NCBI GenBank assembly: GCA_002780715.1
Contig: PEUO01000209.1
Span: 225 to 24,224 of the forward strand
Source: Deltaproteobacteria bacterium CG03_land_8_20_14_0_80_45_14
Lineage (GTDB): Bacteria; Desulfobacterota; BSN033; UBA1163
Direction: 5' to 3'
DNA: 24,000 nucleotides
Positions 475-22,075 of this stretch are shown here, piece by piece. The notes below the pieces were generated by a model. That model did no database searches and was not told where the DNA came from. It saw only the letters and a list, made by a program, of their open reading frames with translations. The position numbers and the translations under genes are program-made. Every line of letters begins with the position of its first letter. Positions within the stretch are counted from its first letter, which is position 1.

Positions 475-1659
475 TTATTTGCCTAAGGCTTTTTTGGCAA
501 ATTCCTTTCCGAATTGAATCGCACTTTTCAATTCTTCCGGATCTGGAACAAATTGAACAGGAAATTCCTTCTCCCAAATTTCGAATTTCTCCTGCTCGAG
601 AGCCTTTCTCATCTCCTTGATCGCCCCTCCTCCCCAACCATGCGATCCAAAGAGGCCGAAGACCTTCCCTTTCGGTCTCAGCCCCTTCATATAGGTTAGG
701 AAGTCTCCCATCGTTGGAAACATTCCGTTGTTCAAAGTGGGTGAACCCAAAAGGATACCTTTTGCATCCAGCATCTCCTCGATGATGTCGCTCCGATGAT
801 TGGATCGCAGGTGAAGAAGTCTTGCTTCCACTCCCTCCTCAATCAAGCCTTTAAGGATAGCCTTGGCAATGCTTTCCGTACTCCCCCACATCGTATCGTA
901 GATGACAAGGAATTTATTCCTGGACTTTCCCTGGCTCCAATCCACGTAGGCCTGAATGATTCGGTTGGGATCCTTTCTCCAGATAAGACCATGGCTGGGT
1001 CCGATCATATCGATGGGAATCCCCATTTTCACCACTTCGTCCACTTTTTTCAAAATGAGCGGCGCCAAAGGCCAAAGGATATTGGCATAATATTTTGCCG
1101 CGTGTTTCATGATGACATCCCCCACCTCATCTTCAAATCTCTGGGAAGAAGCAAAATGCTGACCAAAGGCATCATTCGGCAAAAGGAGTTGATCTTCTTT
1201 AATATAGGTGAACATGCTATCCGGCCAGTGAAGCATGGGAGCCTCCACAAAGGTGAGGGTCCGATGACCGAGGGAAAATGCGTCTCCGCTCTTCACAATC
1301 TTAAATTTCAGCGATTTTTTATAATGTTTCATCAGACCCTTCTGACCCCTCTCAGAGGTGATCACGATAGGGTTTCCAATCCGTTCGACAATCTGAGTGA
1401 GGGAACCGGAGTGGTCCATCTCCACATGGTTCGAAACCACCACATCAATTTTTGACGGATCAATGATCTCTGAAATGCGCCCCAGCAACTCGAGGTAGAA
1501 CGGAGCCTTTACCGTATCCACCAGAACGTTCTTCTCGTCCAATATTAAATAAGCATTATAAGTTGTCCCATAAGGAGTGGAATAGCCGTGAAAATCTCTT
1601 ACATTCCAATCAATCGCTCCAACCCAATAAATCCCCTTCTTCAATTCTACTTTCTCCAT
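475..1659 (-). CDS. fprA: Flavodiiron protein (type A flavoprotein, O2/NO reductase; metallo-beta-lactamase-like plus flavodoxin domains)
   Basis: 394-aa ORF with the diiron ligand motif HVEMDHSG (HxExDH) in the N-terminal half and a flavodoxin-like C-terminal part (LVIYDTMWGSTE). Length and architecture are typical of FprA/ROO. Confidence 0.9.
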   Translation of the reverse strand: MEKVELKKGIYWVGAIDWNVRDFHGYSTPYGTTYNAYLILDEKNVLVDTVKAPFYLELLGRISEIIDPSKIDVVVSNHVEMDHSGSLTQIVERIGNPIVITSERGQKGLMKHYKKSLKFKIVKSGDAFSLGHRTLTFVEAPMLHWPDSMFTYIKEDQLLLPNDAFGQHFASSQRFEDEVGDVIMKHAAKYYANILWPLAPLILKKVDEVVKMGIPIDMIGPSHGLIWRKDPNRIIQAYVDWSQGKSRNKFLVIYDTMWGSTESIAKAILKGLIEEGVEARLLHLRSNHRSDIIEEMLDAKGILLGSPTLNNGMFPTMGDFLTYMKGLRPKGKVFGLFGSHGWGGGAIKEMRKALEQEKFEIWEKEFPVQFVPDPEELKSAIQFGKEFAKKALGK

Positions 1660-5043: not shown

Positions 5044-6576
5044 ATGAACAGGTGGATTGTTGCCATCACAGTCATGCTCCCTACGCTCATCGAGATCATC
5101 GACACATCGGTCGTCAATGTCTCCCTTGATCATATCCGCGGAAGCCTCTCTGCAGGGATTGACGAATCCACCTGGACGATTACCTCTTATCTTGTATCCA
5201 ATGCCATTATCATCCCCATTTCCGGATGGCTGAGCAGGCTCTTTGGAAGAAAACGTTATCTCATTTTCTCCATCTCCCTCTTTACCTTCAGCTCTCTCAT
5301 GTGCGGCTCTTCGTGGAATCTTCAGAGTCTTGTATTCTTCAGAGTTCTCCAGGGTCTGGGCGGCGGAGCCCTTCAGCCCATCTCCCAAGCCATTCTTCTG
5401 GAAACATTTCCACCCCATCAGCACGGGATGGCCATGGCGATCTTTGGCATTGGCATCATGTTTGGACCCATTATCGGCCCTCTGATGGGAGGATGGATTA
5501 CGGACAACTGGTCCTGGCACTGGATATTCTATATCAACGTCCCAATAGGACTTGTTTCAATTTTGATGGCTTTTCTTTTTATCGTTGACCCGCCCTACAT
5601 GCAGAGAATAAAAATGAAGATTGACTACTGGGGACTTTTGTTTTTAGTGATTGGCCTGGGATGCCTTCAGATCGTTCTCGACAAAGGAGAGAGAGAAGAT
5701 TGGTTTTCATCCGGCTTCATCACCTGGATGAGTTATATCTCCATCTCTTCTCTGATCATGTTTATCCTGGTCGAGTTTTTCGCGGAGAACCCCATTGTTA
5801 ATTTGAGGACTTTTAAAAATCTTTCATTCAGCACAGGGAATATCATCATGTTTTTCGTTTTCTTCAATCTTTTTGGAAGCATTGTATTGCTGCCCATTTT
5901 CCTCCAGACGTTGATGGGATATACGTCCTTCCTATCAGGGCTGGCACTCGGCCCCGGTGGCATTGCCACCATAATCGCCATGCCCATAGCAGGGAAACTT
6001 GTCACAAAGATCAATCCAAAGGCAATCCTTGCCTTTGGCATTGTTGTGGCTGGTTATTCGGTCCATATGATGGCTCAGTTTAATCTTCAGGTTGATTTCA
6101 ATACCATCTTTTGGCCAAGAGTTGTGTTAGGAATTGGTATGGGCTTTCTCTTCATCCCCCTTACAACGATGACCATGTCAAGCATAAGAAAGGAAGAGAT
6201 GGGAAATGCCACTGGAATTTTCAACCTCCCAAGAAACCTCGGGGGTAGCTTTGGCGTTGCCTTCATTACAACCATGCTTGCCAGAAGGGCGCAGTTTCAT
6301 CAGGTCCACCTCGTGGAACATCTCTCCCCCTTCGATAGAAACTTCCAGATTGCCCTTCCACAAATCTCCCAGATGTTGCAGCAGAAAGGGTTTATCCCTT
6401 CCCTTCCTGACCAGGGAAGCTTAGGATTAATCTATGGCGAAGTGATAAAACAGGCATCGGTGTTGTCATTTAACGATGCCTTTTACCTTCTTTCAACCAT
6501 GATGATGCTAATTCTTCCTCTTGTCCTGCTGATGAAAAAAGGGAGAGAAGGTATCCCCGCACCGGGTGTACATTAA
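5044..6576 (+). CDS. emrB: MFS drug:H+ antiporter, DHA2 (EmrB/QacA) family
   Basis: 510 aa and polytopic, with about 14 hydrophobic segments. The MFS loop motif is GWLSRLFGRKRYL. It starts 13 nt after the adaptor gene. Confidence 0.85.
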   Translation: MNRWIVAITVMLPTLIEIIDTSVVNVSLDHIRGSLSAGIDESTWTITSYLVSNAIIIPISGWLSRLFGRKRYLIFSISLFTFSSLMCGSSWNLQSLVFFRVLQGLGGGALQPISQAILLETFPPHQHGMAMAIFGIGIMFGPIIGPLMGGWITDNWSWHWIFYINVPIGLVSILMAFLFIVDPPYMQRIKMKIDYWGLLFLVIGLGCLQIVLDKGEREDWFSSGFITWMSYISISSLIMFILVEFFAENPIVNLRTFKNLSFSTGNIIMFFVFFNLFGSIVLLPIFLQTLMGYTSFLSGLALGPGGIATIIAMPIAGKLVTKINPKAILAFGIVVAGYSVHMMAQFNLQVDFNTIFWPRVVLGIGMGFLFIPLTTMTMSSIRKEEMGNATGIFNLPRNLGGSFGVAFITTMLARRAQFHQVHLVEHLSPFDRNFQIALPQISQMLQQKGFIPSLPDQGSLGLIYGEVIKQASVLSFNDAFYLLSTMMMLILPLVLLMKKGREGIPAPGVH

Positions 6577-8279: not shown

Positions 8280-9350
8280 TCATGCAATGTAATTTGACCC
8301 GAACCAGAGAATGAGGCCTACAATCCCCCCGACAATCTCCAGGGGTAATGCCCAACGCATTTCTTTTCTTACCCCTGAGAGAGAAGTGTAAGTCGATGCT
8401 CCTGTAAAATTCATCGCCAGATAAGCCGAGACCGCAGGGATAAGAAAAAACCAAGCCAGTATTTCCAGACGGCCTATCCCTGTGATCCAGTCATTCCAGA
8501 AAAAAGCCATGAGGATTGCAGTAAAAAGGAATCCAAGGCTAAGGCCTTTGATAAAAAAAGCCCGGCCGGGTAACCATGGCAACAATAAAGGTGCCAAAAC
8601 AGCACCAGCCAGAATAGCGGTCAGGAGTGATAGAGCCGAAAAATAGCCATGGTTCAAAGCATTCGTCCAACCTTCTCCTGACTTCCCAACATAAGATAAA
8701 AAGAAAAGGATAGGAATGACAATAATACCTACCTTTAGGGCTCCGACAAGTTCCATTGGGATGAGTTCTATTCGCTCCAAAGTCGTAAAGGTCTTGAGTC
8801 TCATCTCTGGTGTTGCCTTAAGCCCGCCCTCCAAGAAAGTCGGTAGATCTGTCGCCCGGATGGGGCCATATATAACTTTAAAGCCGGATAATTTCTTGAC
8901 ATGATGAGCCGCAACTCCTGGACCAGACAACTGGGGCAGAATCAATTCCCGATGTGAGACGATCTGGCTCAGGGCACTTGATTTGATTCGGCCAACGAGT
9001 TCCATCGTCCCGAAGGTCCCCTTACCCGAAGCACACCAGACATTAATGCCTTTGGTATCCAGAACCAGTATCCACATGTCCCGGCCTGGTAATGCCTCAC
9101 GCAGCTTGTCAAAGCTCATCTTGTAATTGGCAGTGACCAAGACCGGGGACTCCTCATCGGGCTTTCCTAATGCATAAAGACCGGGTTCGACGGTGTAATG
9201 CATGCGGCCTATCCCCCAACGGGCTCTATACCTCCCCAAACGATCTGCCCAAACCAGAGAGGATGAAACCTGAGGCACAGGACCAACGGGGGTCTGGATC
9301 GAACCAATAACAAAGGGCTGCTTTAAACTGGGAAGGCTCAACTGAGCCAC
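8280..9350 (-). CDS. hgcA: Mercury methylation corrinoid protein HgcA (conservative start; see the possible N-terminal extension to 9428)
   Basis: The cap-helix signature is GINVWCASGKGTFG; the family motif is N(V/I)WCA(A/G)GK. The corrinoid-binding N-terminal domain includes PFVIGSIQTPVGPVPQVSS..RMHYTVEPGLYALG and VLVTANYKMSFD. The C-terminal half has 4-5 TM helices. hgcB lies immediately downstream. The start codon is uncertain: GTG 9350, TTG 9341, or ATG 9428 via UGA recoding. Confidence 0.93.
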   Translation of the reverse strand: MAQLSLPSLKQPFVIGSIQTPVGPVPQVSSSLVWADRLGRYRARWGIGRMHYTVEPGLYALGKPDEESPVLVTANYKMSFDKLREALPGRDMWILVLDTKGINVWCASGKGTFGTMELVGRIKSSALSQIVSHRELILPQLSGPGVAAHHVKKLSGFKVIYGPIRATDLPTFLEGGLKATPEMRLKTFTTLERIELIPMELVGALKVGIIVIPILFFLSYVGKSGEGWTNALNHGYFSALSLLTAILAGAVLAPLLLPWLPGRAFFIKGLSLGFLFTAILMAFFWNDWITGIGRLEILAWFFLIPAVSAYLAMNFTGASTYTSLSGVRKEMRWALPLEIVGGIVGLILWFGSNYIA

Positions 9351-14032: not shown

Positions 14033-15508
14033 ATGAAAAAACAGTCGAAGATCACTGTCGGCATCATGGATCGGCAGACCGAAGTCTTGGGTTGTCTGGA
14101 TGGAAATTTCCGCGGGGATGGTTTCGGCCCTGTATCAGGTTGGTTTTCAGCAAAGGGGACAGCGGGGATGATCGTGCTCTTCGATGAGACCCATCGTGAA
14201 ATCACCCGTTCTCCATCGATCAGGTTCACAGCCCAAAAAGATTCCACCCTTCGACTGCGCCAAGGGACAAAGGTGCGCTCAGGGCAAGCTTTTACACTCT
14301 TTAATGTAACCATCGGAAACCGCTTCCACTGGGAGAGGACAGAAAATCAGACCTTTCAAGGGAACCTGCTTCTCTGTCTGCGCGAGGACGAAACGATCGC
14401 CGCCATCAATGAAATCCCCCTGGAGGATTATCTAAAAAGTGTGATCTCCTCAGAGATGAGTGCTGAAGCTCCGATGGAATTTCTGAAGGCCCACGCAATC
14501 CTATCCCGGAGCTGGCTTCTGGCTGGCCTCGGTCGAAGGAAAAAAACAAAAAAAACGTCCATACCGGCGGGGAAGGAGAAGCTCCTCGCCCACAGGGCGG
14601 AACTTCCCAGTAATGTGTCGCCCATTTATACTGTGCCCCTTGACCCCGCCAAGACGGGGCTTTCGGGGTGCTTGCCGGCCACCGAAAAGGAAGGAGAGGT
14701 GATACGCTGGTATGACCGGGAGGACCACGACCTCTTCGATGTCTGCAGCGATGACCACTGCCAGCGCTACCAGGGCATTACAAAGATCGTATCCAAACAG
14801 GCCGAAGATGCTGTCCGAGAAACGCGCGGGATGGTGATCACCTACCAGGATGAAATCTGTGATGCCCGATATTCCAAGTCCTGCGGGGGAATCACAGAAG
14901 ACTTCGGCACAGCCTGGGATGATAAACGAATCCCTTATCTGATAAGCATTTCGGATGCATCAGTCCCTCATCGCCCGATCGGGACGGAGGAAGAAGCTTC
15001 GCGCTGGATTTTTTCGGCCCCCGAAGCCTACTGCCACACAAAAGACGAAGCTCTTCTCGAAAAAATCCTTCCCGACTTTGACCGCGAGACAAAAGGTTTT
15101 TTCCGCTGGAAGGTCGAATACTCCCGGACGGAACTGGAAGAAATCCTTCGAGAAAAATCGGGTTTTGATTTCGGGACGCTGCATGAAATTGTACCCCTTC
15201 ACCGTGGTCCTTCGGGCCGGATCTCCCGGTTAAAAATCGTCGGTTCGAAGAGAAACGCTGTCGTGGGAAAGGAGCTTGAAATAAGGCGCTGGCTCTCCCG
15301 TAGTCACCTTTACAGCAGTGCATTCCTTGTGACGGTGAAACAACATCTTCACGGGGAAGCCGAGCGATTTACCCTTCATGGTGCCGGCTGGGGACACGGC
15401 GTGGGACTCTGCCAGATCGGCGCCGCTGTCATGGCAACCCGGGGATTTTCAACGGAGGAAATTTTGAGACATTATTTCAGGGGGACGGAAATTAAAAAAA
15501 TCTATTGA
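14033..15508 (+). CDS. SpoIID/LytB domain protein (peptidoglycan-remodelling, lytic transglycosylase-type)
   Basis: LEDYLKSVISSEMSAEAPMEFLKAHAILSRSWLL and DVCSDDHCQRYQG are SpoIID-family signatures. GHGVGLCQIGA lies near the C-terminus. Confidence 0.8.
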   Translation: MKKQSKITVGIMDRQTEVLGCLDGNFRGDGFGPVSGWFSAKGTAGMIVLFDETHREITRSPSIRFTAQKDSTLRLRQGTKVRSGQAFTLFNVTIGNRFHWERTENQTFQGNLLLCLREDETIAAINEIPLEDYLKSVISSEMSAEAPMEFLKAHAILSRSWLLAGLGRRKKTKKTSIPAGKEKLLAHRAELPSNVSPIYTVPLDPAKTGLSGCLPATEKEGEVIRWYDREDHDLFDVCSDDHCQRYQGITKIVSKQAEDAVRETRGMVITYQDEICDARYSKSCGGITEDFGTAWDDKRIPYLISISDASVPHRPIGTEEEASRWIFSAPEAYCHTKDEALLEKILPDFDRETKGFFRWKVEYSRTELEEILREKSGFDFGTLHEIVPLHRGPSGRISRLKIVGSKRNAVVGKELEIRRWLSRSHLYSSAFLVTVKQHLHGEAERFTLHGAGWGHGVGLCQIGAAVMATRGFSTEEILRHYFRGTEIKKIY

Positions 15509-15515
15509 GCATTGA

Positions 15516-16805
15516 ATGGACGCTTCCACACCAAAACCGACATCGCGAAATCCCTGGGCCTGGGTCCCCTCTTTGTACGTTTCCGAGGGGATTCCTTATA
15601 TCATGGCAATGACAGTTTCAGTGGTGCTCTACAAACGCCTTGGCATTTCAAACGCCAAGATCGCCTTTTACACAAGCTGGCTCTATCTTCCCTGGGTCAT
15701 CAAGCCGCTCTGGAGCCCCTTTGTCGACCTATTCAGGACGAAGCGATACTGGATCCTTCTGATGCAGCTCGTCATCGGTGCGTCACTGGCCTGCATTGCG
15801 TTAAGCATCCCGGCTGCCAGGTTCTTCCAATATACCCTTGCCTTCTTCTGGCTGATGGCCTTCAGCTCGGCAACCCATGATATCGCTGCCGACGGCCTTT
15901 ACATGCTGGGGCTCCCGGAGCATCTCCAGGCTGCCTTTATCGGGGTGCGAACGACCTTTTACCGCATCGCCACGATCGCGACCATGGGCGGGCTTGTCAT
16001 CTTTGCAGGTTATCTCGAAGGAAGCGACCATGATATCCCCACAGCCTGGTCCATCGCCTTCTTTGTGTCGGCTGCCGTCTTTGCAGCCCTCTTCCTTTAT
16101 CATTTTTTTGTTCTTCCCTATCCGACTGCGGACCGTCCGGCTAACCGTAACCCTTCGACGTCCCTCACTGCGGAGTTCCTCCACATCTTCGGCCTCTTCT
16201 TCAGGAAAAAGAAGATCGTTACCATTCTTGCTTTCCTTCTCTTCTACCGGCTCGCGGAGACCCAGCTTCTCAAGATCATAGCGCCCTTTCTCCTCGACCC
16301 TCGCTCAAAGGGGGGACTGGGACTCACCACATCAGAGGTGGGAATTATTTACGGCACGGTGGGGGTAATTGCACTGATGCTGGGAGGGCTTCTCGGCGGG
16401 TATGCCATTTACAGGAAAGGGCTCAAGTTCTGGATATGGATCATGGTCTGCATGATGCATTTGCCAAATCTCGTTTTCGTTTATGTCTCGCAGACCATGC
16501 CTGACAATTTCCATTTGATCAACCTCGCAGTTGCCGTGGAGCAATTCGGTTACGGCTTTGGCTTTACAGCCTATACGATGTTTATGATTATGGTGTCGGA
16601 GGGAGAGTATAAAACGGTCCACTACGCCATTTCCACGGGAATTATGGCCTTGGGTATGATGGTACCGGCCATGGCGAGCGGTTGGCTCCAGGAACAGCTG
16701 GGCTATCAGAACTTCTTCCTTTGGGTCATGGCCGCAACGGCCCCGGGGTTCATCGTGGTGGCACTGGTGAAAATTGATCCAGAGTTCGGAAAGAAAAAGA
16801 CGTGA
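15516..16805 (+). CDS. ampG: AmpG-family MFS permease (muropeptide transporter type)
   Basis: 429 aa and polytopic. The N-terminal [48 protein letters not shown] matches the AmpG signature region. Confidence 0.75.
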
Positions 16806-17547
16806 GAAACCATTGAAAGGGCGACGATTCAAGACAGCCTTCATCCTGGGCGCTGGGCTGGGGAGGCGGCTTCGCCCTCTGACGGAGCGACGTCCGAAGC
16901 CGCTCCTGGAGATTGGAGGACGTCCCATCATCACTTACGCGATGGATCATCTCCTGAAAGTTGGCGTGGATCGCTTCATCGTGAACACCCATCATTGCCC
17001 GGGAGTCTACTCGGAAAAATTTCCTGACAGGCGATGGCATGGTGTGCCCATTACCTTTCGCCATGAACCAGTCCTTCTGGACACGGCGGGGGGACTTAAA
17101 AACATTGAAGATCTCCTGAACGAGGACGAGGCCATCTTCTGCTACAACGGGGATGTAGTGACTGATCTTCCCTTGCAGAGCCTCTTGGAGGTCCATGAGC
17201 AGAAGCGACCGGAGGTAACGCTTGCCCTGCGAAGCAGCGGCTCTCTTCTCAATGTGAACATCAATGAGGATGCTGAGATCTGCGATCTTCGGCACACACT
17301 GGGAAATCGGGGAGTTCAAAGTTGCCTCTTTGCCGGCATCTATGCCATGGAGACATCGATCCTTCAGTTTCTTGAAGCCGGCAAAATCGAATCCATCATT
17401 CCTGCCTTGATCAGAAGAATCGTGGATAAACAGGGATCTATCCGGGGAATCGTCATAGACGAAGGCGAGTGGCACGATATCGGCTCCATTGAAGCCTACG
17501 AAGCCCTGAAAGCCAGCATGTCAGCGGGCCTTATCGTATCCGGTTAG
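16774..17547 (+). CDS. Sugar-1-phosphate nucleotidyltransferase family protein (MurU-like)
   Basis: [31 protein letters not shown] is the GxGxRLxPLT NTP-transferase signature. The start is uncertain: ATG 16774 overlaps ampG by 32 nt, and TTG 16813 is an alternative. Confidence 0.7.
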
Positions 17548-17761
17548 TCTTTTCTGGACACTTAAGGAATGCTTCCGCGCAGATCCAAAAGGGTGTGTAA
17601 TTTGATGGCTCCTTTGTGCTTCCGGAACTTGGCCCATGGGAATTACCCCTTGTTTTCGAAGGGTGATTGGGATATAAATATTCGATAGTGCTGGTGAATG
17701 GTGATTGTGGAAAAACAGGTTTCATTGACACTAATCACCATTACTATTTACCGAAAGGCGA

Positions 17762-18904
17762 ATGGCAATGAAGCGAAGATGGTTTATTATAGGCGTTTTG
17801 GTTCTGGGATTTTTCTTGCTCTTCAATGCATCTTCATCCCATGCCCAAAAATCGCACAAGACTCTCATTCTCCTCTATAGCAATAATATTAATGGCGAGA
17901 TTGAACCCTGTCCGACCTGAGATCAGAAGAATCGTCTTGGCGGTCTGGCCAGGAGAGGGGCGTGGGTGAAGGATTTACGGGAAAATGAAAAGGGGATACT
18001 CGTTTTAGATTCCGGCGATCTCCTTTTCAAAAAATATCTTAATCCCATTCCTGAAAATGGGTTAAAAGGAATGAGCGAGAAGGCCCATCTTATTGTCGAG
18101 AGTTTCAATCTGATGGGTTACGATGCCATAGGTATCGGGGATGATGATTTGAGCCTTGGAAAGGAATTCCTGTTGGAGATTTCAAAGAAAGCCAATTTCC
18201 CCTTCCTTTCTTCCAACCTCCTTGATGAGGCGTCGGGAAAAATTCTTTTTCAATCTTCTCTGATAAAGGAAATCAATGGTCTTCGAATTGGCATTTTTTG
18301 CCTTCTCTCGCCTGATTTCTTTCCAGGTCCTTCTGACCCCCGGAGAAAGGGATTGAACATGCGGTCACCGATCGAAACAGCCCAGGCCATGGTCAAAGAA
18401 CTTAAACCCAAAACCGATCTGATCATCCTCTTGAGCCATCTTGGCTATGTGAAAGATATCGAGTTGGCCCAGACCCTCCAAGGAATCAATATCATCGTGG
18501 GCGGCCATACCGGAATCAATCTCATCTATCCTCCTGTCATCAAAAACACCCCTATTCTTCAAACCGCCTCTCGGGGGATGTTTGGAGGAAGGCTTGACCT
18601 CATCCTCTATAACAACGAACTTATCTTTTACAATTCGGCAACCCAAATATCTTTGGAGAATAACCTCAACAGTATCAACCAGCGATTAAACTCTAAAGAA
18701 ACACCGGAGGCTGAAAAGGCTCAATGGCGAAAAGCCCAAGAAGAGACTGAACGAACCCTAAGCCAGCTCCGGGGTAAAAACGTATTCACCAATAACATCA
18801 TTCCACTGCAGGGTCAGATGAAAGAGCTTCCTGATATTAAAAAGATAGTCGAAGCTTATAAGGCGAAACCCCAGACAACAGAAAATCCTGTCTCTCCGAA
18901 ATGA
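17762..18904 (+). CDS. Secreted degenerate metallophosphoesterase/5'-nucleotidase-like protein, candidate selenoprotein (UGA at 17918-17920 in a CPTU motif)
   Basis: The ATG at 17762 (or 17768) opens MAMKRRWFIIGVLVLGFFLLFNASSSHAQ (a signal peptide), then KSHKTLILLYSNNINGEIEPCPT-TGA-DQKNRLGGLARRGAWV. This continues in frame (204 nt = 68 codons) into track ORF 17966-18904 (KDLRENEKGILVLDSGDLLF...). Calcineurin-fold motif I lies before the TGA and motifs II and III lie after it. Confidence 0.65.
17935..17954 (+). promoter_or_regulatory. SECIS-like hairpin downstream of the in-frame UGA
   Basis: UCUUGGC[GGUCUG]GCCAGGA is a 7-bp stem including one G-U pair. The loop starts with GGUC, 21 nt after the UGA. 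Confidence 0.45.
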
Positions 18905-20676
18905 CGAAGATGGCAAGCATTGATCTAATCCTTTTACATCCGCCAACCCTTTACGACTTCAGAAAACGGCCTGGGATTTACGGTCCGATCAGCGATGTCG
19001 TCCCCTCCACGCCTATCTTTGAAATGTATCCCATTGGATTTGCCAGCCTCTCAGAATATTTAGAGCGCCATGGTCTCAAAGTCAGGATCATCAATGTCGC
19101 CATGAAGATGCTCAAGGATGACAAATTTGATGTGGAGCGGCTTATTCAAAAAAATAAGCCCGTAGCCTTCGGCATCGATCTCCATTGGATGGCCCATGTC
19201 CAGGGAGCATTGGCTCTCGCAGAAATCATCAAACGGTTTCATCCCAAAATCCCCATCATCCTGGGTGGGCTTTCTGCCACCTATTACCATGAAGAGATTC
19301 TCCATCAATATCCTTTTATCGATTTTGTGATGAGAGGAGATTCTACAGAAAAACCTCTGCTTCAACTCCTCCAAACGATCAAAAAAGGGGGAGATTTTAA
19401 AAATATTCCTAACCTTACCTACCGGGATCGGAGGAACGGAATTCAGGCCAATCCCCTCACCCATGTACCGGAGAACCTTGACGAGATTACGATCGATTAT
19501 TGTCACATCATGAAGAAGGTGGTGAGGTATGTTGACCCCACGGGCTACCAGCCTTTTCTTGATTGGTATACCTATCCTGTGACAGCCGTCTTCACCTGCC
19601 GGGGATGTATTTATTCTTGTAAAACTTGCGGGGGTTCCGCACAGACCTTTCGAACGATGGCGAATCGGAGGAAACCAGCCTATCGGAATCCCAAATTATT
19701 GGCGCAGGATATCTTCAATATCTCAGATCACCTCCATGCGCCGGTGATGATCATCGGCGATATCTTTCAACCCGGAGAAGAATATGGTTTTACCTTTCTT
19801 CAGGAGATGAAGAGGAGGCCGATTACCAACCATATCGCCTTTGAATTTTTCGTTCCTCCTTCCAGAGCTCAACTAAAAAAAATTGCCGAGTCCATTTCGA
19901 ACTTCAATATCGAAATCTCTCCAGAGTCTCACGATGAAGAAGTCCGAAGGGCTTTCGGAAGGCCCTATAACAATGAATCGTTGGAAAGGATGCTTGGGGA
20001 TGCCATCGACCTCGGCTCGAAACGGATCGATCTGTTTTTCATGACTGGCCTTCCAAAACAAACCTATCGATCCGTACTGGAGACGGTGGATTATTGCCGT
20101 TCTCTATTGGAACGATTTCGTTCCTATCACAAACTCTTCCCCTTCATTTCTCCCCTGGCCCCTTTCTTGGATCCCGGGAGTATTGTCTTTGAAGCGCCAG
20201 AAAAATACGGATACCGTCTGCTTTATCGGACAATGGAGGAACACCGTCAGGCCTTATTGGCCCCCAGTTGGAAATATATCCTCAACTATGAAACGGAATG
20301 GATGAATCGGGATGAGATCGTCTTCAGCACTTATGAAGCTGGAAAGAGGCTCAATCGTCTGAAGGCCGAATTCGGTCTGATCGATCGAAAGACTGCAGAA
20401 TCGGTTGAGATGCGGCTTGACGGGGCAGTCCAGATGATGAAGGAGATCGACCGGATCATGGCCCTTCCAGATCCCAGAGAGAGAGCGCACGCCCTGGAGT
20501 CCGTTTCAAGTGGACGTCTCTCCCTCCAGCATTATAGCATGTCAACCATTTGTGAGAAAAAAGAACTGAAATGGCCCACTCGATTCATTCGAATGAACTT
20601 CGTCAAGATTCTTAAAACACTCCTGATGAGGAGGAAGCCCAATGTCTCTGTCCCTTCGTCAACAGGCGCTCCGTAA
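18901..20676 (+). CDS. B12-binding-domain radical SAM protein (class B)
   Basis: 591 aa. The N-terminal cobalamin-binding-like Rossmann segment reads VAFGIDLHWMAHVQGALALAEIIKRFHPKIPIILGGLSATYY. The radical SAM cluster motif CIYSCKTC (CxxxCxxC) sits within FTCRGCIYSCKTCGG. Its ATG overlaps the upstream stop (ATGA). Confidence 0.8.
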   Translation: MTKMASIDLILLHPPTLYDFRKRPGIYGPISDVVPSTPIFEMYPIGFASLSEYLERHGLKVRIINVAMKMLKDDKFDVERLIQKNKPVAFGIDLHWMAHVQGALALAEIIKRFHPKIPIILGGLSATYYHEEILHQYPFIDFVMRGDSTEKPLLQLLQTIKKGGDFKNIPNLTYRDRRNGIQANPLTHVPENLDEITIDYCHIMKKVVRYVDPTGYQPFLDWYTYPVTAVFTCRGCIYSCKTCGGSAQTFRTMANRRKPAYRNPKLLAQDIFNISDHLHAPVMIIGDIFQPGEEYGFTFLQEMKRRPITNHIAFEFFVPPSRAQLKKIAESISNFNIEISPESHDEEVRRAFGRPYNNESLERMLGDAIDLGSKRIDLFFMTGLPKQTYRSVLETVDYCRSLLERFRSYHKLFPFISPLAPFLDPGSIVFEAPEKYGYRLLYRTMEEHRQALLAPSWKYILNYETEWMNRDEIVFSTYEAGKRLNRLKAEFGLIDRKTAESVEMRLDGAVQMMKEIDRIMALPDPRERAHALESVSSGRLSLQHYSMSTICEKKELKWPTRFIRMNFVKILKTLLMRRKPNVSVPSSTGAP

Positions 20677-22075
20677 GATTCCCAGTGTAGATGAAATCCT
20701 TTCAAGGCCAGAGACCGTTGATCTCTTAAAGGTCCATCCCCGTAATGTCGTGGTCAAAGCCATCCGAAAGGGATTGGGACAACTGCGCGAAGAAATCCTC
20801 CATCACAAAGAACTTTCTCAATGGGGAGATGCCCTCTTCTCTTTCGAACACCTTTATCCTCTTTTCCAAAAAGAGATTGACCTTCAGATTCAACCCCGGC
20901 TCCGCCGAGTCATTAATGCAACCGGAGTGGTAATCCATACGAATTTGGGAAGATCTCCACTCCACCCTTCTGCGATTGAACACTTGATTGACGTCTCTAA
21001 AAGCTACTCCAACTTAGAATACGACATCGACCTGGGGGAGCGGGGAAGCCGATATACTCATGTCGAAGAAATCCTCTGTCGCCTCTCAGGCGCTGAATCA
21101 GCCTTGGTGGTCAATAATAATGCAGGGGCTGTTCTGCTTGCCTTGAATACTCTTGCAGAAGGCAAGGAGGTTATCGTTTCAAGGGGAGAATTGATCGAAA
21201 TCGGAGGAGCCTTTCGGATTCCAGATGTGATGAAGCGTAGTGGCGCCATTCTCAGGGAGGTCGGGACAACCAATCGCACTCACATCAGTGATTACCAGAA
21301 AGCAATCGGCCCGCAAACAGCCCTGCTTCTGAAGGTCCACACCAGCAATTTCAGAGTGATGGGGTTCACCTCCGAAGTCTCTCTCCAAGATTTAGTCCAA
21401 CTGGGAAGAGAACATCATTTCCCTGTTGTGGATGATTTAGGAAGCGGCTGTTTGGTAGACCTTAGCCTGTATGGATTAGAAAAAGAGCCTACCGTTCAAG
21501 AGACGATCAAAACTGGCGTGGGTGCGGTCACCTTTAGCGGCGATAAACTCCTTGGAGGTCCACAGGCCGGAATTATTTTGGGGAAGAAAACATTTTTGGA
21601 CCTCTTCAAGATCAATCCCCTGACCCGAGCCCTTCGCATCGATAAGCTCACCTTAGCCGCTCTTGAATCCACTCTTCTCCTTTACCTCGATGAGAAGAGA
21701 GCAATGGATGAGATTCCAACCCTCAGGATGTTGAGCCTGGATACGAGTAAATTAAAGAGGAGAGGAAGACGTCTGCTGAAAAAATTGCAAGGGATGATGA
21801 ACAAAAGGATGACATTCACTCTGAAAGAAGATGTCTCTCAGGTGGGCGGTGGAGCCCTTCCCCTTCAAGAACTTCCAACCATGGTGATCGCCATCAAACC
21901 TCTCGACTTTTCAGTAAACAGTCTCGAAGAAAATTTAAGGAAGGGGGACCCTCCCATCATTTCTCGAATCAGCAAAGAAGAATTGATCCTGGATATGAGA
22001 ACCGTCTTCGATGAAGAAATCCCTCTGTTGGTCGCTGGTCTTGAAAAGGCTCTGAAACATCTCCAGTCGCAATGA
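20642..22075 (+). CDS. selA: L-seryl-tRNA(Sec) selenium transferase
   Basis: 477 aa with an N-terminal LRKIPSVDEIL. The PLP-lysine block is FSGDKLLGGPQAGIILGKK, and NLEYDIDLGERGSRY is also present. These are typical SelA signatures. Confidence 0.9.
   Translation: MSLSLRQQALRKIPSVDEILSRPETVDLLKVHPRNVVVKAIRKGLGQLREEILHHKELSQWGDALFSFEHLYPLFQKEIDLQIQPRLRRVINATGVVIHTNLGRSPLHPSAIEHLIDVSKSYSNLEYDIDLGERGSRYTHVEEILCRLSGAESALVVNNNAGAVLLALNTLAEGKEVIVSRGELIEIGGAFRIPDVMKRSGAILREVGTTNRTHISDYQKAIGPQTALLLKVHTSNFRVMGFTSEVSLQDLVQLGREHHFPVVDDLGSGCLVDLSLYGLEKEPTVQETIKTGVGAVTFSGDKLLGGPQAGIILGKKTFLDLFKINPLTRALRIDKLTLAALESTLLLYLDEKRAMDEIPTLRMLSLDTSKLKRRGRRLLKKLQGMMNKRMTFTLKEDVSQVGGGALPLQELPTMVIAIKPLDFSVNSLEENLRKGDPPIISRISKEELILDMRTVFDEEIPLLVAGLEKALKHLQSQ

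What the first reader, a model, noticed from the sequence alone, without database searches (positions are those of the whole stretch)
17762..17966. A TGA splits a single metallophosphoesterase domain at a C-P-T-U (CxxU) motif: candidate new secreted selenoprotein
The track ORF 17966-18904 begins with a GTG in the middle of a calcineurin-fold domain. Upstream and in the same frame, an ATG at 17762 encodes a clear signal peptide (MAMKRRWFIIGVLVLGFFLLFNASSSHAQ). It also encodes the beta-strand that normally carries motif I (LILLYSNNINGEIEP, aligned to ..LHTNDxHG.. of 5'-nucleotidases). Next come CPT, the TGA at 17918-17920, and DQKNRLGGLARR. Motif II (LDSGDLLF) and the motif III position (IGIGDDDL in place of GNHEF) lie after the TGA. 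The stop therefore interrupts one fold: the gene is either a selenoprotein or a pseudogene. Three things favour Sec: the CxxU redox-type context, the hairpin UCUUGGC[GGUCUG]GCCAGGA whose GGUC loop starts 21 nt after the UGA, and selA two genes downstream in the same coupled gene string. The catalytic metal ligands are also degenerate (D to N and H to N in motif I, NH to DD in motif III). The protein is probably not a phosphoesterase and may instead use the Cys/Sec pair. To my knowledge this family is not among the classical bacterial selenoprotein families, but that needs a database check.
Basis: partly seen in the sequence, partly recalled or inferred. Interest (0 to 1): 0.8.

Follow-up and report, generated by a model that had tools for sequence, protein, structure and literature searches.

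The report
Haem-less UshA-like selenoprotein gene
The in-frame TGA is a real selenocysteine codon in an exported, 5'-nucleotidase-like protein that databases wrongly cut short, but UshA-like selenoproteins were already known, so this is a new short member rather than a new family.

Summary
The TGA is a selenocysteine codon, not decay. 90 of 91 related loci (57-88% identity) keep TGA there, and three clades at 34-40% identity do too. dN/dS before the TGA is 0.07 (0.14 for the rest). The hairpin meets all four published bacterial SECIS criteria. Its codons are frozen at synonymous sites (GGC 85/85, GGT 82/85, GCC 84/85). Cys homologues exist (CPSC, CGC, CSC). selA is two genes downstream, and tRNA-Sec follows in orthologous loci. 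The novelty claim fails. "UshA-like" (COG0737) selenoproteins are listed in a 2008 paper, and NCBI curates two families (NF041198 CxU, NF049981 CxxU). The window protein scores 259 bits on NF041198 (cutoff 275). True members stripped of their tetrahaem cytochrome domain score only 217-235. So this is a haem-less, CxxU short form of that family, called in GenBank as a truncated 312-aa hypothetical protein. One metal site's ligands and the catalytic His are lost while the other site is kept, so it is probably not a phosphoesterase. The Cys/Sec pair probably binds a metal or forms a redox pair. That part is inferred.

The parts
17768..18904 (+). Full coding sequence of the UshA-like selenoprotein (378 aa from ATG 17768, or 380 aa from the alternative ATG 17762), read through UGA 17918 as Sec
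   Evidence: Orthologues in 13 MAG species and 80 metagenome loci are collinear over the whole length. NF041198 gives 259 bits over residues 15-373.
17762..17845 (+). Sec-type signal peptide (n-region KRR, hydrophobic core, predicted cleavage SHA|QK)
   Evidence: Read directly from the sequence. The -3/-1 small-residue pattern (S/V/G/T-x-A) before Q is kept in orthologues, while the twin Arg is not, so it is not a Tat signal. dN/dS is 0.38. The model shows a low-pLDDT N-terminal helix. SignalP was not available, so this is inferred.
17885..17893 (+). Degenerate motif I: Asn42-Ile-Asn44 in place of the Asp-x-His metal ligands
   Evidence: Alignment to 2z1a and 3ivd. Clade-wide pattern.
17909..17920 (+). 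Cys50-Pro-Thr-Sec53 motif (CxxU). Most orthologues read C-P-T-U-G.
   Evidence: PCPT in 88/91 loci, Cys 85/85, TGA 84/85 distinct sequences. Cys homologues carry CPSC, CGC or CSC.
17918..17920 (+). UGA selenocysteine codon
   Evidence: TGA in 90/91 loci, and also in L106, L109 and L110 at 34-40% identity. TGA is an ordinary stop in 8 of 16 long ORFs of the window.
17935..17954 (+). SECIS hairpin: a 7-bp stem in this window (conserved core 5 bp, 17937-17941 pairing with 17948-17952) and the apical loop GGUCUG at 17942-17947
   Evidence: Meets the bSECIS criteria quoted in PMC13188914. Centroid structure at -11.2 kcal/mol. Synonymous sites frozen. Pair statistics. Compensatory G-C in L109.
18140..18148 (+). 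Motif III Asp127-Asp128-Asp129 in place of Asn-His-Glu (metal-ligand Asn changed to Asp, catalytic His lost)
18901..20676 (+). Translationally coupled downstream gene: TIGR04190-family B12-binding radical SAM protein, function unknown
   Evidence: 666 bits against a cutoff of 500. Immediately downstream in 66/68 loci, and also in L110, where the UshA-like protein is only 40% identical.
20642..22075 (+). selA, L-seryl-tRNA(Sec) selenium transferase
   Evidence: TIGR00474 at 632 bits. Follows the rSAM in 44/44 loci and in L110.

Best explanation
Window 17768-18904 is one gene for an exported UshA-like selenoprotein.

Translation (well supported): UGA 17918-17920 is decoded as selenocysteine. The hairpin just downstream has its GGUCUG loop 21 nt after the UGA and acts as the bacterial SECIS, which recruits SelB with Sec-tRNA(Sec). 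The product is a precursor of about 378 aa. It has a Sec-type signal peptide, a 5'-nucleotidase-type (calcineurin-fold) domain, and a helical C-terminal extension in place of the nucleotide-binding domain.

Family placement (well supported): it belongs to the known UshA-like (COG0737, NF041198-type) selenoprotein group. It is a short form without the C-terminal tetrahaem cytochrome c domain, and it has a C-x-x-U motif rather than C-x-U.

Function (inferred): it is not a phosphoesterase. The ligands of one metal site (motif I Asp and His, and the second His of motif V) and the catalytic His of motif III are lost. The ligands of the other site are kept: motif II Asp, motif III Asn changed to Asp, motif IV His and motif V His. 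The C-P-T-U(-G) knuckle that appears together with this loss most likely supplies a thiolate/selenolate pair to a remodelled metal centre. The protein would then act in the periplasm on a sulfur-, selenium- or metal-containing substrate.
For: Shown here:
- TGA is at the same codon in 90/91 loci from 13 MAG species and 80 metagenome contigs at 57-88% identity. The scan patterns flank the site, so they do not bias the codon.
- TGA is also at that codon in three clades at 34-40% identity in different gene neighbourhoods.
- dN/dS of the mature segment before the TGA is 0.07, against 0.14 for the rest of the protein.
- Of 23 columns with an invariant four-fold-degenerate residue, only 3 have an invariant third base, and all 3 lie in the hairpin.
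- In 85 distinct sequences the hairpin codons are GGC 85/85, GGT 82/85, CTG 79/85 and GCC 84/85. The Gly eight codons before the TGA uses its four codons at 39/27/12/5.
- dS is halved in the segment holding the hairpin.
- All bSECIS consensus criteria are met.
- Stem pair 3 is always formed, as U-G, C-G or U-A, in 84/84 sequences. L109 has G-C where the window has U-A.
- Cys homologues carry CPSC (P0123 at 48% identity, P0184), CGC, CSC or CKC.
- selA is in the window. tRNA-Sec lies about 5.6 kb downstream in 5 orthologous loci. TGA is a normal stop codon in this genome.
- NF041198 'UshA-like (seleno)protein' scores 259 bits. True members with the cytochrome domain removed score 217-235.
- The AF2 model of the orthologue P0104 has pLDDT 93 and matches UshA, c4898 and CD73 with probability 1.0.
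- Ligand loss and the Cys pair go together: 57 domains have a degenerate motif I plus the pair, 51 are canonical without it, and 7 are off-diagonal.
Against: - No experimental evidence of selenium incorporation exists.
- selB and selD were not seen within 10 kb of an orthologous locus, and they cannot be checked from this window.
- Rfam has no match, and the hairpin's folding energy is not better than shuffled sequence.
- Covariation is modest, because the core pairs never vary.
- The hairpin encodes the conserved GGLAR peptide, so part of its conservation is at the protein level. The synonymous-site test addresses this point.
- One relative (L001/L002, about 4x coverage) has TTA (Leu) at the site.
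- The protein scores below the curated cutoffs of both NCBI UshA-like families.
- The functional part is inference.
Confidence: 0.88

Rival explanations
1. The same selenoprotein, but Cys50 and Sec53 form a redox-active selenylsulfide pair (like a thiol oxidoreductase CxxU motif) rather than binding a metal. The calcineurin-fold scaffold would only position a substrate.
For: CxxU and CxxC are classical redox motifs, and most bacterial selenoproteins are redox proteins (PMC2398784). More distant short forms sit next to genes for periplasmic disulfide-handling proteins: a VKOR-thioredoxin fusion in L109, and MauE/DoxX plus a rhodanese in L106. The long-form relatives carry a tetrahaem cytochrome domain, which implies electron transfer.
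Against: The pair appears specifically where metal ligands are lost, while the ligands of the second metal site are retained. C-P-x-C/U-G at the tip of a beta-hairpin resembles a metal-binding knuckle more than the helix-N-cap CxxC of thioredoxins; this comparison rests on my own knowledge. Many relatives have CxC spacing, which is a poor geometry for an intramolecular disulfide. The two readings are not exclusive.
Confidence: 0.3
2. Pseudogene: the TGA is an inactivating nonsense mutation, and the upstream frame is decaying sequence.
For: GenBank and JGI call only the 312-aa GTG-initiated ORF. One relative has a different codon at the site (TTA).
Against: TGA is fixed in 90/91 loci and in clades down to 34% identity. 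No frameshifts or extra stops lie upstream. dN/dS upstream is 0.07. An RNA hairpin conserved at synonymous sites lies downstream.
Confidence: 0.02
3. Two products: translation really stops at the TGA, giving a 52-aa exported peptide. A separate cytoplasmic 312-aa protein starts at GTG 17966, as annotated.
For: The GTG is conserved as a Val codon (GTG in 42 of 85 sequences), and gene callers choose it.
Against: The 312-aa product would lack the first beta-strand and motif I of its fold, and would lack the signal peptide. The AF2 model places residues 31-58 inside the domain at pLDDT 84-96. The Val codon varies (GTG, GTA, GTC, ATA, ATG), so it is not a conserved start. Cys homologues are single polypeptides.
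Confidence: 0.03
4. UGA is read as another amino acid, either Trp or Gly by code reassignment or Cys/Trp by near-cognate readthrough, and not as Sec.
For: One gene caller translated the orthologous TGA as Trp (P0104).
Against: TGA terminates 8 of 16 long ORFs in the window, including this gene. The lineage is Thermodesulfobacteriota, which uses the standard code. A SECIS-like hairpin, selA and tRNA-Sec are all present.
Confidence: 0.02

Closest known systems
NCBIfam NF041198, UshA-like (seleno)protein (PCGU / CxU). This is the 'COG0737, UshA-like' selenoprotein family of Zhang & Gladyshev 2008 (PMC2398784).
   Same: It is the best-scoring family (259 bits, E 6e-77). The alignment covers profile positions 4-381, taking in the degenerate motif I, the Cys/Sec loop, the GGLAR motif, the calcineurin-fold core and the helical extension. 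Over that region the window protein scores higher than true members with the cytochrome domain removed (217-235 bits). Sec or Cys sits in the same loop.
   Different: It scores below the curated cutoff of 275. It has no C-terminal tetrahaem (4 x CXXCH) cytochrome c554-like domain. Its motif is C-P-T-U (CxxU) rather than P-C-G-U (CxU). GenBank does not annotate it as a selenoprotein; it appears as a 312-aa hypothetical protein.
NCBIfam NF049981, UshA-like (seleno)protein family 2 (CxxU; listed in PMC13188914)
   Same: The same CxxU spacing and the same superfamily, and it is also a short protein (profile of 262 positions).
   Different: It scores only 65 bits against a cutoff of 140, clearly further away than NF041198.
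SoxB thiosulfohydrolase (TIGR04486; PDB 2wdc, 4uwq)
   Same: It is the second-best NCBIfam hit (91 bits). The Cys-pair clade often scores higher on SoxB than on any nucleotidase model. Both are periplasmic 5'-nucleotidase-fold proteins, and SoxB acts on a sulfur substrate rather than a nucleotide.
   Different: The score is far below the cutoff of 550. From my own knowledge, SoxB keeps a canonical dimanganese site and has no Cys/Sec pair. It is also larger, with a C-terminal domain.
E. coli UshA, human CD73 and T. thermophilus 5'-nucleotidase (PDB 1ush, 4h1s, 2z1a)
   Same: The fold of the N-terminal metallophosphoesterase domain matches (Foldseek probability 1.0, TM about 0.65; phmmer E 1e-19). 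The GGxAR motif, motif II GD, motif IV His and motif V His are retained.
   Different: The motif I Asp and His, the motif III Asn and catalytic His, and the second His of motif V are all replaced. There is no C-terminal nucleotide-binding domain. The Cys/Sec knuckle is added. No Pfam Metallophos hit appears even at E = 10.
Sec as a metal ligand in [NiFeSe] hydrogenase and formate dehydrogenase (a functional analogy only, from my own knowledge)
   Same: A selenolate would replace or supplement a thiolate at a catalytic metal centre. Both are used by anaerobic Deltaproteobacteria-type organisms.
   Different: The folds are unrelated, and metal binding by Sec53 is not shown here.

Membership tests
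Bacterial Sec-decoding (selenoprotein) gene | In-frame UGA conserved among orthologues, with coding constraint on both sides | tested here: met
   TGA in 90/91 loci, and in L106, L109 and L110. dN/dS is 0.07 upstream and 0.14 downstream.
Bacterial Sec-decoding (selenoprotein) gene | [quoted passage not shown] | tested here: met
   Loop GGUCUG (6 nt), stem 5-7 bp, spacing 21 nt, -11.2 kcal/mol. The criteria come from PMC13188914. Synonymous sites are frozen. bSECISearch itself was not run.
Bacterial Sec-decoding (selenoprotein) gene | Homologues with Cys aligned to the Sec | tested here: met
   P0123 and P0184 CPSC, P0152 CPTC, P0171 CGC, P0134 CSC
Bacterial Sec-decoding (selenoprotein) gene | Sec machinery in the genome: selA, selB, selC, selD | tested here: inconclusive
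   selA is in the window (632 bits). tRNA-Sec is in 5 orthologous loci just beyond the equivalent of the window end. selB and selD were not seen within 10 kb, and the rest of the genome is not available.
Bacterial Sec-decoding (selenoprotein) gene | Selenium actually incorporated | not testable with these tools
   Needs 75Se labelling or mass spectrometry
NF041198 UshA-like (seleno)protein | Whole-protein score at or above the curated cutoff (275 bits) | tested here: not met
   259.4 bits. However, members truncated before the cytochrome domain score 217-235.
NF041198 UshA-like (seleno)protein | C-terminal multihaem cytochrome c domain (profile positions about 382-519) | tested here: not met
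   There is no CXXCH in the window protein, while P0134, P0171, P0192 and P0131 each have 4.
NF041198 UshA-like (seleno)protein | P-C-G-U/C motif (CxU) | tested here: not met
   The window has P-C-P-T-U (CxxU).
NF049981 UshA-like (seleno)protein family 2 | Score at or above 140 bits | tested here: not met
   65.2 bits
NF049981 UshA-like (seleno)protein family 2 | CxxU motif | tested here: met
   C-P-T-U. The motif is as listed in PMC13188914.
Calcineurin-like metallophosphoesterase / 5'-nucleotidase (UshA, CD73) | Fold of the N-terminal domain | tested here: met
   Foldseek probability 1.0 to 1oie, 1ush, 3ive and CD73. The model has pLDDT 93.
Calcineurin-like metallophosphoesterase / 5'-nucleotidase (UshA, CD73) | Motifs DxH, GD, GNH[ED], H and GHxH, which provide the dinuclear metal site and the catalytic His | tested here: not met
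   NxN, GD, GDDD, H and GHxG
Calcineurin-like metallophosphoesterase / 5'-nucleotidase (UshA, CD73) | C-terminal nucleotide-binding domain (5_nucleotid_C) | tested here: not met
   No Pfam hit. Residues 290-370 are two long helices, a strand and a helix.
SoxB thiosulfohydrolase | TIGR04486 score at or above 550 bits | tested here: not met
   91 bits

The most novel reading that the evidence does not exclude
The haem-less CxxU short forms are a distinct periplasmic selenoenzyme. In it a Cys/Sec knuckle (C-P-T-U-G) has replaced one metal site of the calcineurin-fold dinuclear centre, creating a selenolate-ligated metal site on a phosphoesterase scaffold. Its biogenesis or function is tied to the co-transcribed TIGR04190 B12-radical SAM enzyme and to selA/selC. 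For example, the rSAM might modify the precursor before Sec-dependent export, or the protein might work in periplasmic handling of selenium or sulfur that feeds the Sec pathway.
Probability: 0.15. Interest if true: 0.7.

Novelty: new member of a known kind. Interest (0 to 1): 0.33.

Why it matters
**Annotation.** Hundreds of database entries for this clade are truncated 312-aa "hypothetical protein" or "5'-nucleotidase" calls that lack the signal peptide, the first strand and the Cys/Sec motif. NCBI's two curated UshA-like selenoprotein models both miss this clade, so a third model, or a lower domain-level cutoff, would repair it.

**Biology.** The data define a large set of 5'-nucleotidase-fold proteins in which loss of one metal site and of the catalytic His goes with gain of a Cys-x(1-2)-Cys/Sec knuckle. 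Some members are fused to tetrahaem cytochromes. No member has a known function or structure. This short form is a simple single-domain target for working out what the family does.

It does not reveal a new selenoprotein family or a new recoding mechanism.

Tried and rejected
- **Pfam:** nothing for the joined protein even at E = 10. NCBIfam was needed.
- **Rfam:** no SECIS or other credible family at gathering threshold or at E up to 10.
- **Thermodynamic significance of the hairpin:** z = -0.12 in the window, so it was not used as evidence.
- **Covariation:** it exceeds shuffles only weakly (covariation score reached by 21/500 shuffles) because the core is invariant. It is treated as consistent, not decisive.
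- **Full-length homologues with Leu or Trp at the site:** these first looked like a refutation. The Trp (P0104) is a gene-caller artefact over a TGA. The Leu (P0058) is a real TTA in one low-coverage contig.
- **Structure prediction of the window protein with U replaced by C:** The orthologue P0104 was modelled instead.
- **Radical SAM neighbour search:** the search meant to sample distant gene contexts returned only hits at 87% identity or more, so it was uninformative.
- **selB and selD near an orthologous locus on a 2.2 Mb contig:** not found within 10 kb. The AIRS-domain gene there follows hypF, hypC and hypD, so it is most likely hypE.
- **Tat export:** rejected because the twin Arg is not conserved in orthologues.
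- **Labelling error:** the motif III columns were mislabelled and corrected.
Full report

Yes. Translating 17762-18904 in one frame gives a continuous 380-codon reading frame with a single internal stop, TGA at 17918-17920. Before it lie a hydrophobic N-terminus (MAMKRRWFIIGVLVLGFFLLFNASSSHAQ), the strand LILLYSNNINGEIEP and then C-P-T. After it come DQKNRLGGLARRGAW and the GTG at 17966, where the mechanically listed 312-aa ORF begins.

The hairpin tcttggc/ggtctg/gccagga occupies 17935-17954, and its loop starts 21 nt after the TGA. SelA (20642-22075) is two genes downstream, after a B12-binding radical SAM gene whose ATG overlaps the stop of this gene.

Alignment to solved 5'-nucleotidases confirms the motif substitutions. 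YSNNIN aligns with HTNDTH, and GDDDL aligns with GNHEF.

Orthologues begin at the position of the second ATG (17768), and the GAAAGG at 17749-17754 is better spaced for that start.

**2. Selenocysteine or decay?**

I collected the orthologous region from 13 species-level MAGs of Thermodesulfobacteriota/Syntrophaceae and from 80 metagenome contigs. The metagenome scan used peptide patterns that flank the codon but do not include it.
- Of 91 loci with enough upstream sequence, 90 have TGA at this codon and one has TTA. None has a stop in the 22 codons upstream.
- Of the two database proteins that looked full length, P0104 ("W" at the site) is a gene-caller artefact over a TGA. P0058 carries a real TTA, in a contig of about 4x coverage whose hairpin is intact.
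- Pairwise dN/dS is 0.07 for the mature segment before the TGA, 0.14 for the 312 codons after the GTG, and 0.38 for the signal peptide.
- Three more distant short forms (34-40% identity to the window protein) carry TGA at the same position: L106 DPCFT-TGA-GNRVIGGLARR, L109 FPCPT-TGA-GNKVLGGLARR and L110 LPCRT-TGA-GNKTIGGLARR. They sit in different gene neighbourhoods.
- TGA terminates 8 of 16 long ORFs in the window, so the codon is not reassigned genome-wide.

A pseudogene, a genuinely split gene or a reassigned codon cannot produce this pattern.

**3. The hairpin.**

Thermodynamics is not evidence here. The hairpin is the centroid structure (-11.2 kcal/mol), but the 60-nt segment folds no better than shuffled sequence (z = -0.12). 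Rfam has no match.

The evidence is conservation that the protein cannot explain.
- Among 14 full-length sequences, 23 alignment columns hold an invariant four-fold-degenerate amino acid. Only 3 of these have an invariant third base, and all 3 are hairpin codons (+7 GGC, +8 GGT, +10 GCC). Outside the hairpin the count is 0 of 20.
- In 85 distinct sequences these codons are GGC 85/85, GGT 82/85, CTG 79/85 and GCC 84/85. The Gly eight codons before the TGA uses its four codons at 39/27/12/5, and a nearby Pro uses its four at 40/20/13/12.
- dS in the Sec-to-GTG segment is about half that elsewhere (0.62 against about 1.27).

The conserved element is a 5-bp stem. Three pairs are invariant, one U-A pair is kept in 75/84, and one pair is always formed, as U-G (41), C-G (39) or U-A (4). 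The loop is GGUCUG in 75/84.

In L109 the loop is identical, but the fourth pair is G-C instead of U-A, a change on both sides. That hairpin folds at -20.2 kcal/mol.

[quoted passage not shown] All of these are met.

**4. Sec machinery.**

selA is bona fide (TIGR00474, 632 bits). ARAGORN finds no tRNA in the window. It does find a tRNA-Sec (anticodon UCA) about 5.6 kb downstream of the gene start in five orthologous loci. By synteny that would place it near 24.4-24.5 kb, just past the end of this window.

**5. What protein is it?**

Pfam gives nothing even at E = 10. NCBIfam's best hits are:
- NF041198 "UshA-like (seleno)protein" (UshA_like_PCGU): E 6e-77, 259 bits, curated cutoff 275, covering profile positions 4-381 of 519.
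- SoxB: 91 bits.
- NF049981 "UshA-like (seleno)protein family 2": 65 bits, cutoff 140.

An exhaustive search of 1.8 billion cluster representatives supplied diverse relatives. True NF041198 members (P0134, P0171, P0131, P0192; 342-372 bits) carry four CXXCH motifs and a cytochrome c554-like domain at the C-terminus. The window protein has no CXXCH.

When I removed that domain from three true members, they scored 235, 217 and 217 bits, below the window protein's 259. So the window protein is an NF041198-type UshA-like domain without the tetrahaem module, and the missing module is the reason it fails the cutoff.

An AlphaFold2 model of the orthologue P0104 (pLDDT 93, pTM 0.89) matches E. coli UshA, c4898 and CD73 (probability 1.0, TM about 0.65). 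The last 90 or so residues are helices rather than the nucleotide-binding domain.

**6. Cys homologues and the metal site.**

Among 115 aligned domains from the representatives:
- 57 combine a degenerate motif I with a C-x(1-2)-C (or TGA) pair in the loop that follows.
- 51 have a canonical D-x-H and no pair.
- Only 7 are off-diagonal.

Examples are P0123 EPCPSC (48% identity, 333 aa), P0184 EPCPSC, P0152 ACPTC, P0171 DPCGC and P0134 DPCSC.

With correctly indexed columns, the canonical set is D-x-H, G-D, G-N-H-[ED], H and G-H-x-H, nearly without exception. In the Cys-pair clade (n=56):
- The motif I Asp is mostly N or S, and the motif I His is kept in only 3.
- The motif II Asp is kept in 40.
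- The motif III Asn becomes Asp or Glu in 45.
- The catalytic His of motif III is not among the seven commonest residues at its position, so it is kept in at most 3 of 56. Q, K, T, R and D take its place.
- The acidic residue after the catalytic His is kept in all 56.
- The motif IV His is kept in 40.
- The first His of motif V is kept in 39, and the second is lost.

These positions can be mapped onto the E. coli UshA site assignment. From my own knowledge, not tested here, site 1 is Asp41, His43, Asp84 and Gln254, site 2 is Asp84, Asn116, His217 and His252, and the catalytic dyad is His117-Asp120. On that mapping, the ligands unique to site 1 and the general-acid His are lost, while site 2 is kept and made more acidic.

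The window protein follows this pattern (N42, N44, D86, D127, D128, H226, H249, G251 in 17762 numbering). Phosphoesterase chemistry is therefore unlikely.

In most orthologues the motif reads C-P-T-U-G (Gly after Sec in 76 of 85). The model places the Cys at the end of one short strand and the Sec in the turn before the next. From my own knowledge, that is the geometry and consensus of a rubredoxin or zinc-ribbon "knuckle" (CPxCG).

My preferred reading is that the Cys/Sec pair supplies ligands to a remodelled metal centre. A redox-active selenylsulfide pair is the main alternative. Three observations favour or allow it:
- VKOR-thioredoxin genes lie next to the gene in L109.
- MauE/DoxX and rhodanese genes lie next to it in L106.
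- The long forms are fused to cytochrome domains.

The two roles are not exclusive, and neither is shown.

**7. Gene neighbourhood.**

The order UshA-like, TIGR04190 B12-radical SAM, selA holds in 66/68 and 44/44 loci with enough flank. Those loci are close relatives. More telling, L110 has the same three-gene string although its UshA-like protein is only 40% identical and its rSAM 64% identical.

The Cys form P0123 and the short forms in L106 and L109 lack this string. The window's own upstream genes (SpoIID, an AmpG-like transporter, a MurU-like transferase) are shared by none of the 64 other loci with enough upstream flank.

I could not sample distant rSAM contexts. Whether the linkage is functional or inherited is therefore unresolved.

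**8. Comparison with what is known, and novelty.**

"COG0737, UshA-like" with a CxU motif appears in the selenoprotein family table of the 2008 Global Ocean Sampling paper (76 selenoprotein sequences, 92 Cys homologues), and its discussion names UshA-like among the major families (PMC2398784).

What is new is modest. This clade is a haem-less short form with CxxU spacing. It falls under both curated cutoffs. GenBank and IMG annotate it as a truncated 312-aa hypothetical protein or "5'-nucleotidase". It is abundant in sediment and wetland metagenomes: 1309 hits in the first protein search and 369 confirmed metagenome loci.

I file it as a new member of a known kind. No function or structure is known for any member of the Cys/Sec-pair group.

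**9. Verdict.**
- **Observation:** confirmed.
- **Interpretation:** partly supported. It is a genuine selenoprotein and probably not a phosphoesterase, but it is not a new family.
- **Confidence:** about 0.9 that the UGA encodes Sec and that the protein belongs with the UshA-like selenoproteins. Roughly 0.45 for a metal-ligand role of the Cys/Sec pair, against 0.3 for a purely redox role.
- **Interest:** modest (0.33).

Noticed in passing
L004 12718-12811 (also L008, L010, L013, L016): A tRNA-Sec gene (anticodon UCA) lies downstream of selA, rluD, a YfiH-like gene and a DUF167-like gene in orthologous loci. By synteny it would lie near 24.4-24.5 kb, just past the end of this window.
   Followed up: partly
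L001 987-4751: A molybdopterin oxidoreductase is called as two adjacent ORFs (189 aa with Molybdop_Fe4S4, then 798 aa) and is followed by a Fer4_11 protein. This looks like a TGA-split selenocysteine formate dehydrogenase alpha subunit plus FdhB. It lies directly upstream of the only Leu (TTA) variant of the UshA-like gene.
   Followed up: no
window 18901-20676: A TIGR04190-family B12-binding radical SAM protein of unknown function is translationally coupled to the selenoprotein gene (ATGA overlap) and overlaps selA by 35 nt. It is more conserved than the selenoprotein (79-93% against 57-88% identity). The trio persists in L110, where the UshA-like protein is only 40% identical.
   Followed up: partly
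window 14033-17547: SpoIID-domain protein, AmpG-like MFS transporter (below the family cutoff) and MurU-like nucleotidyltransferase form an overlapping string that suggests peptidoglycan recycling. None of the 64 related loci with upstream flank shares this upstream context.
   Followed up: partly
P0184 (803 aa), residues 338-417: A CPSC UshA-like domain is fused to a weak match to the 'OS_HP2 family (seleno)protein' domain (NF041425, 31 bits against a cutoff of 100).
   Followed up: no
P0130, P0140, P0160 (about 1200 aa): Large proteins carry two Cys-pair UshA-like domains each, for example EH...CECP and NN...CGCP.
   Followed up: no
L109 1-3298 and L106 277-4301: More distant CxxU short forms sit next to a CDF cation-efflux gene and a VKOR-thioredoxin fusion (L109), or next to NifU, a rhodanese, MauE/DoxX and XdhC (L106). 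These are themes of periplasmic thiol/disulfide handling, sulfur trafficking and metals.
   Followed up: partly
L111 1-7400: A [NiFe]-hydrogenase maturation cluster (hypF, hypC, hypD, an AIRS-domain gene that is probably hypE, hypA, hypB) lies upstream of the orthologous UshA-like/rSAM/selA string on a 2.2 Mb contig.
   Followed up: no
L008 about 5950-6000: Two in-frame stops sit in the signal-peptide region of one orthologue from a long-read MAG, and its rSAM is also displaced. These are probably indel errors rather than decay.
   Followed up: no
window 8280-9350 (-) and 475-1659 (-): There is a CdhD-like protein (CO dehydrogenase/acetyl-CoA synthase delta subunit domain) and a flavodiiron-type protein (ODP/metallo-beta-lactamase plus flavodoxin). 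Both fit a strictly anaerobic host.
   Followed up: no
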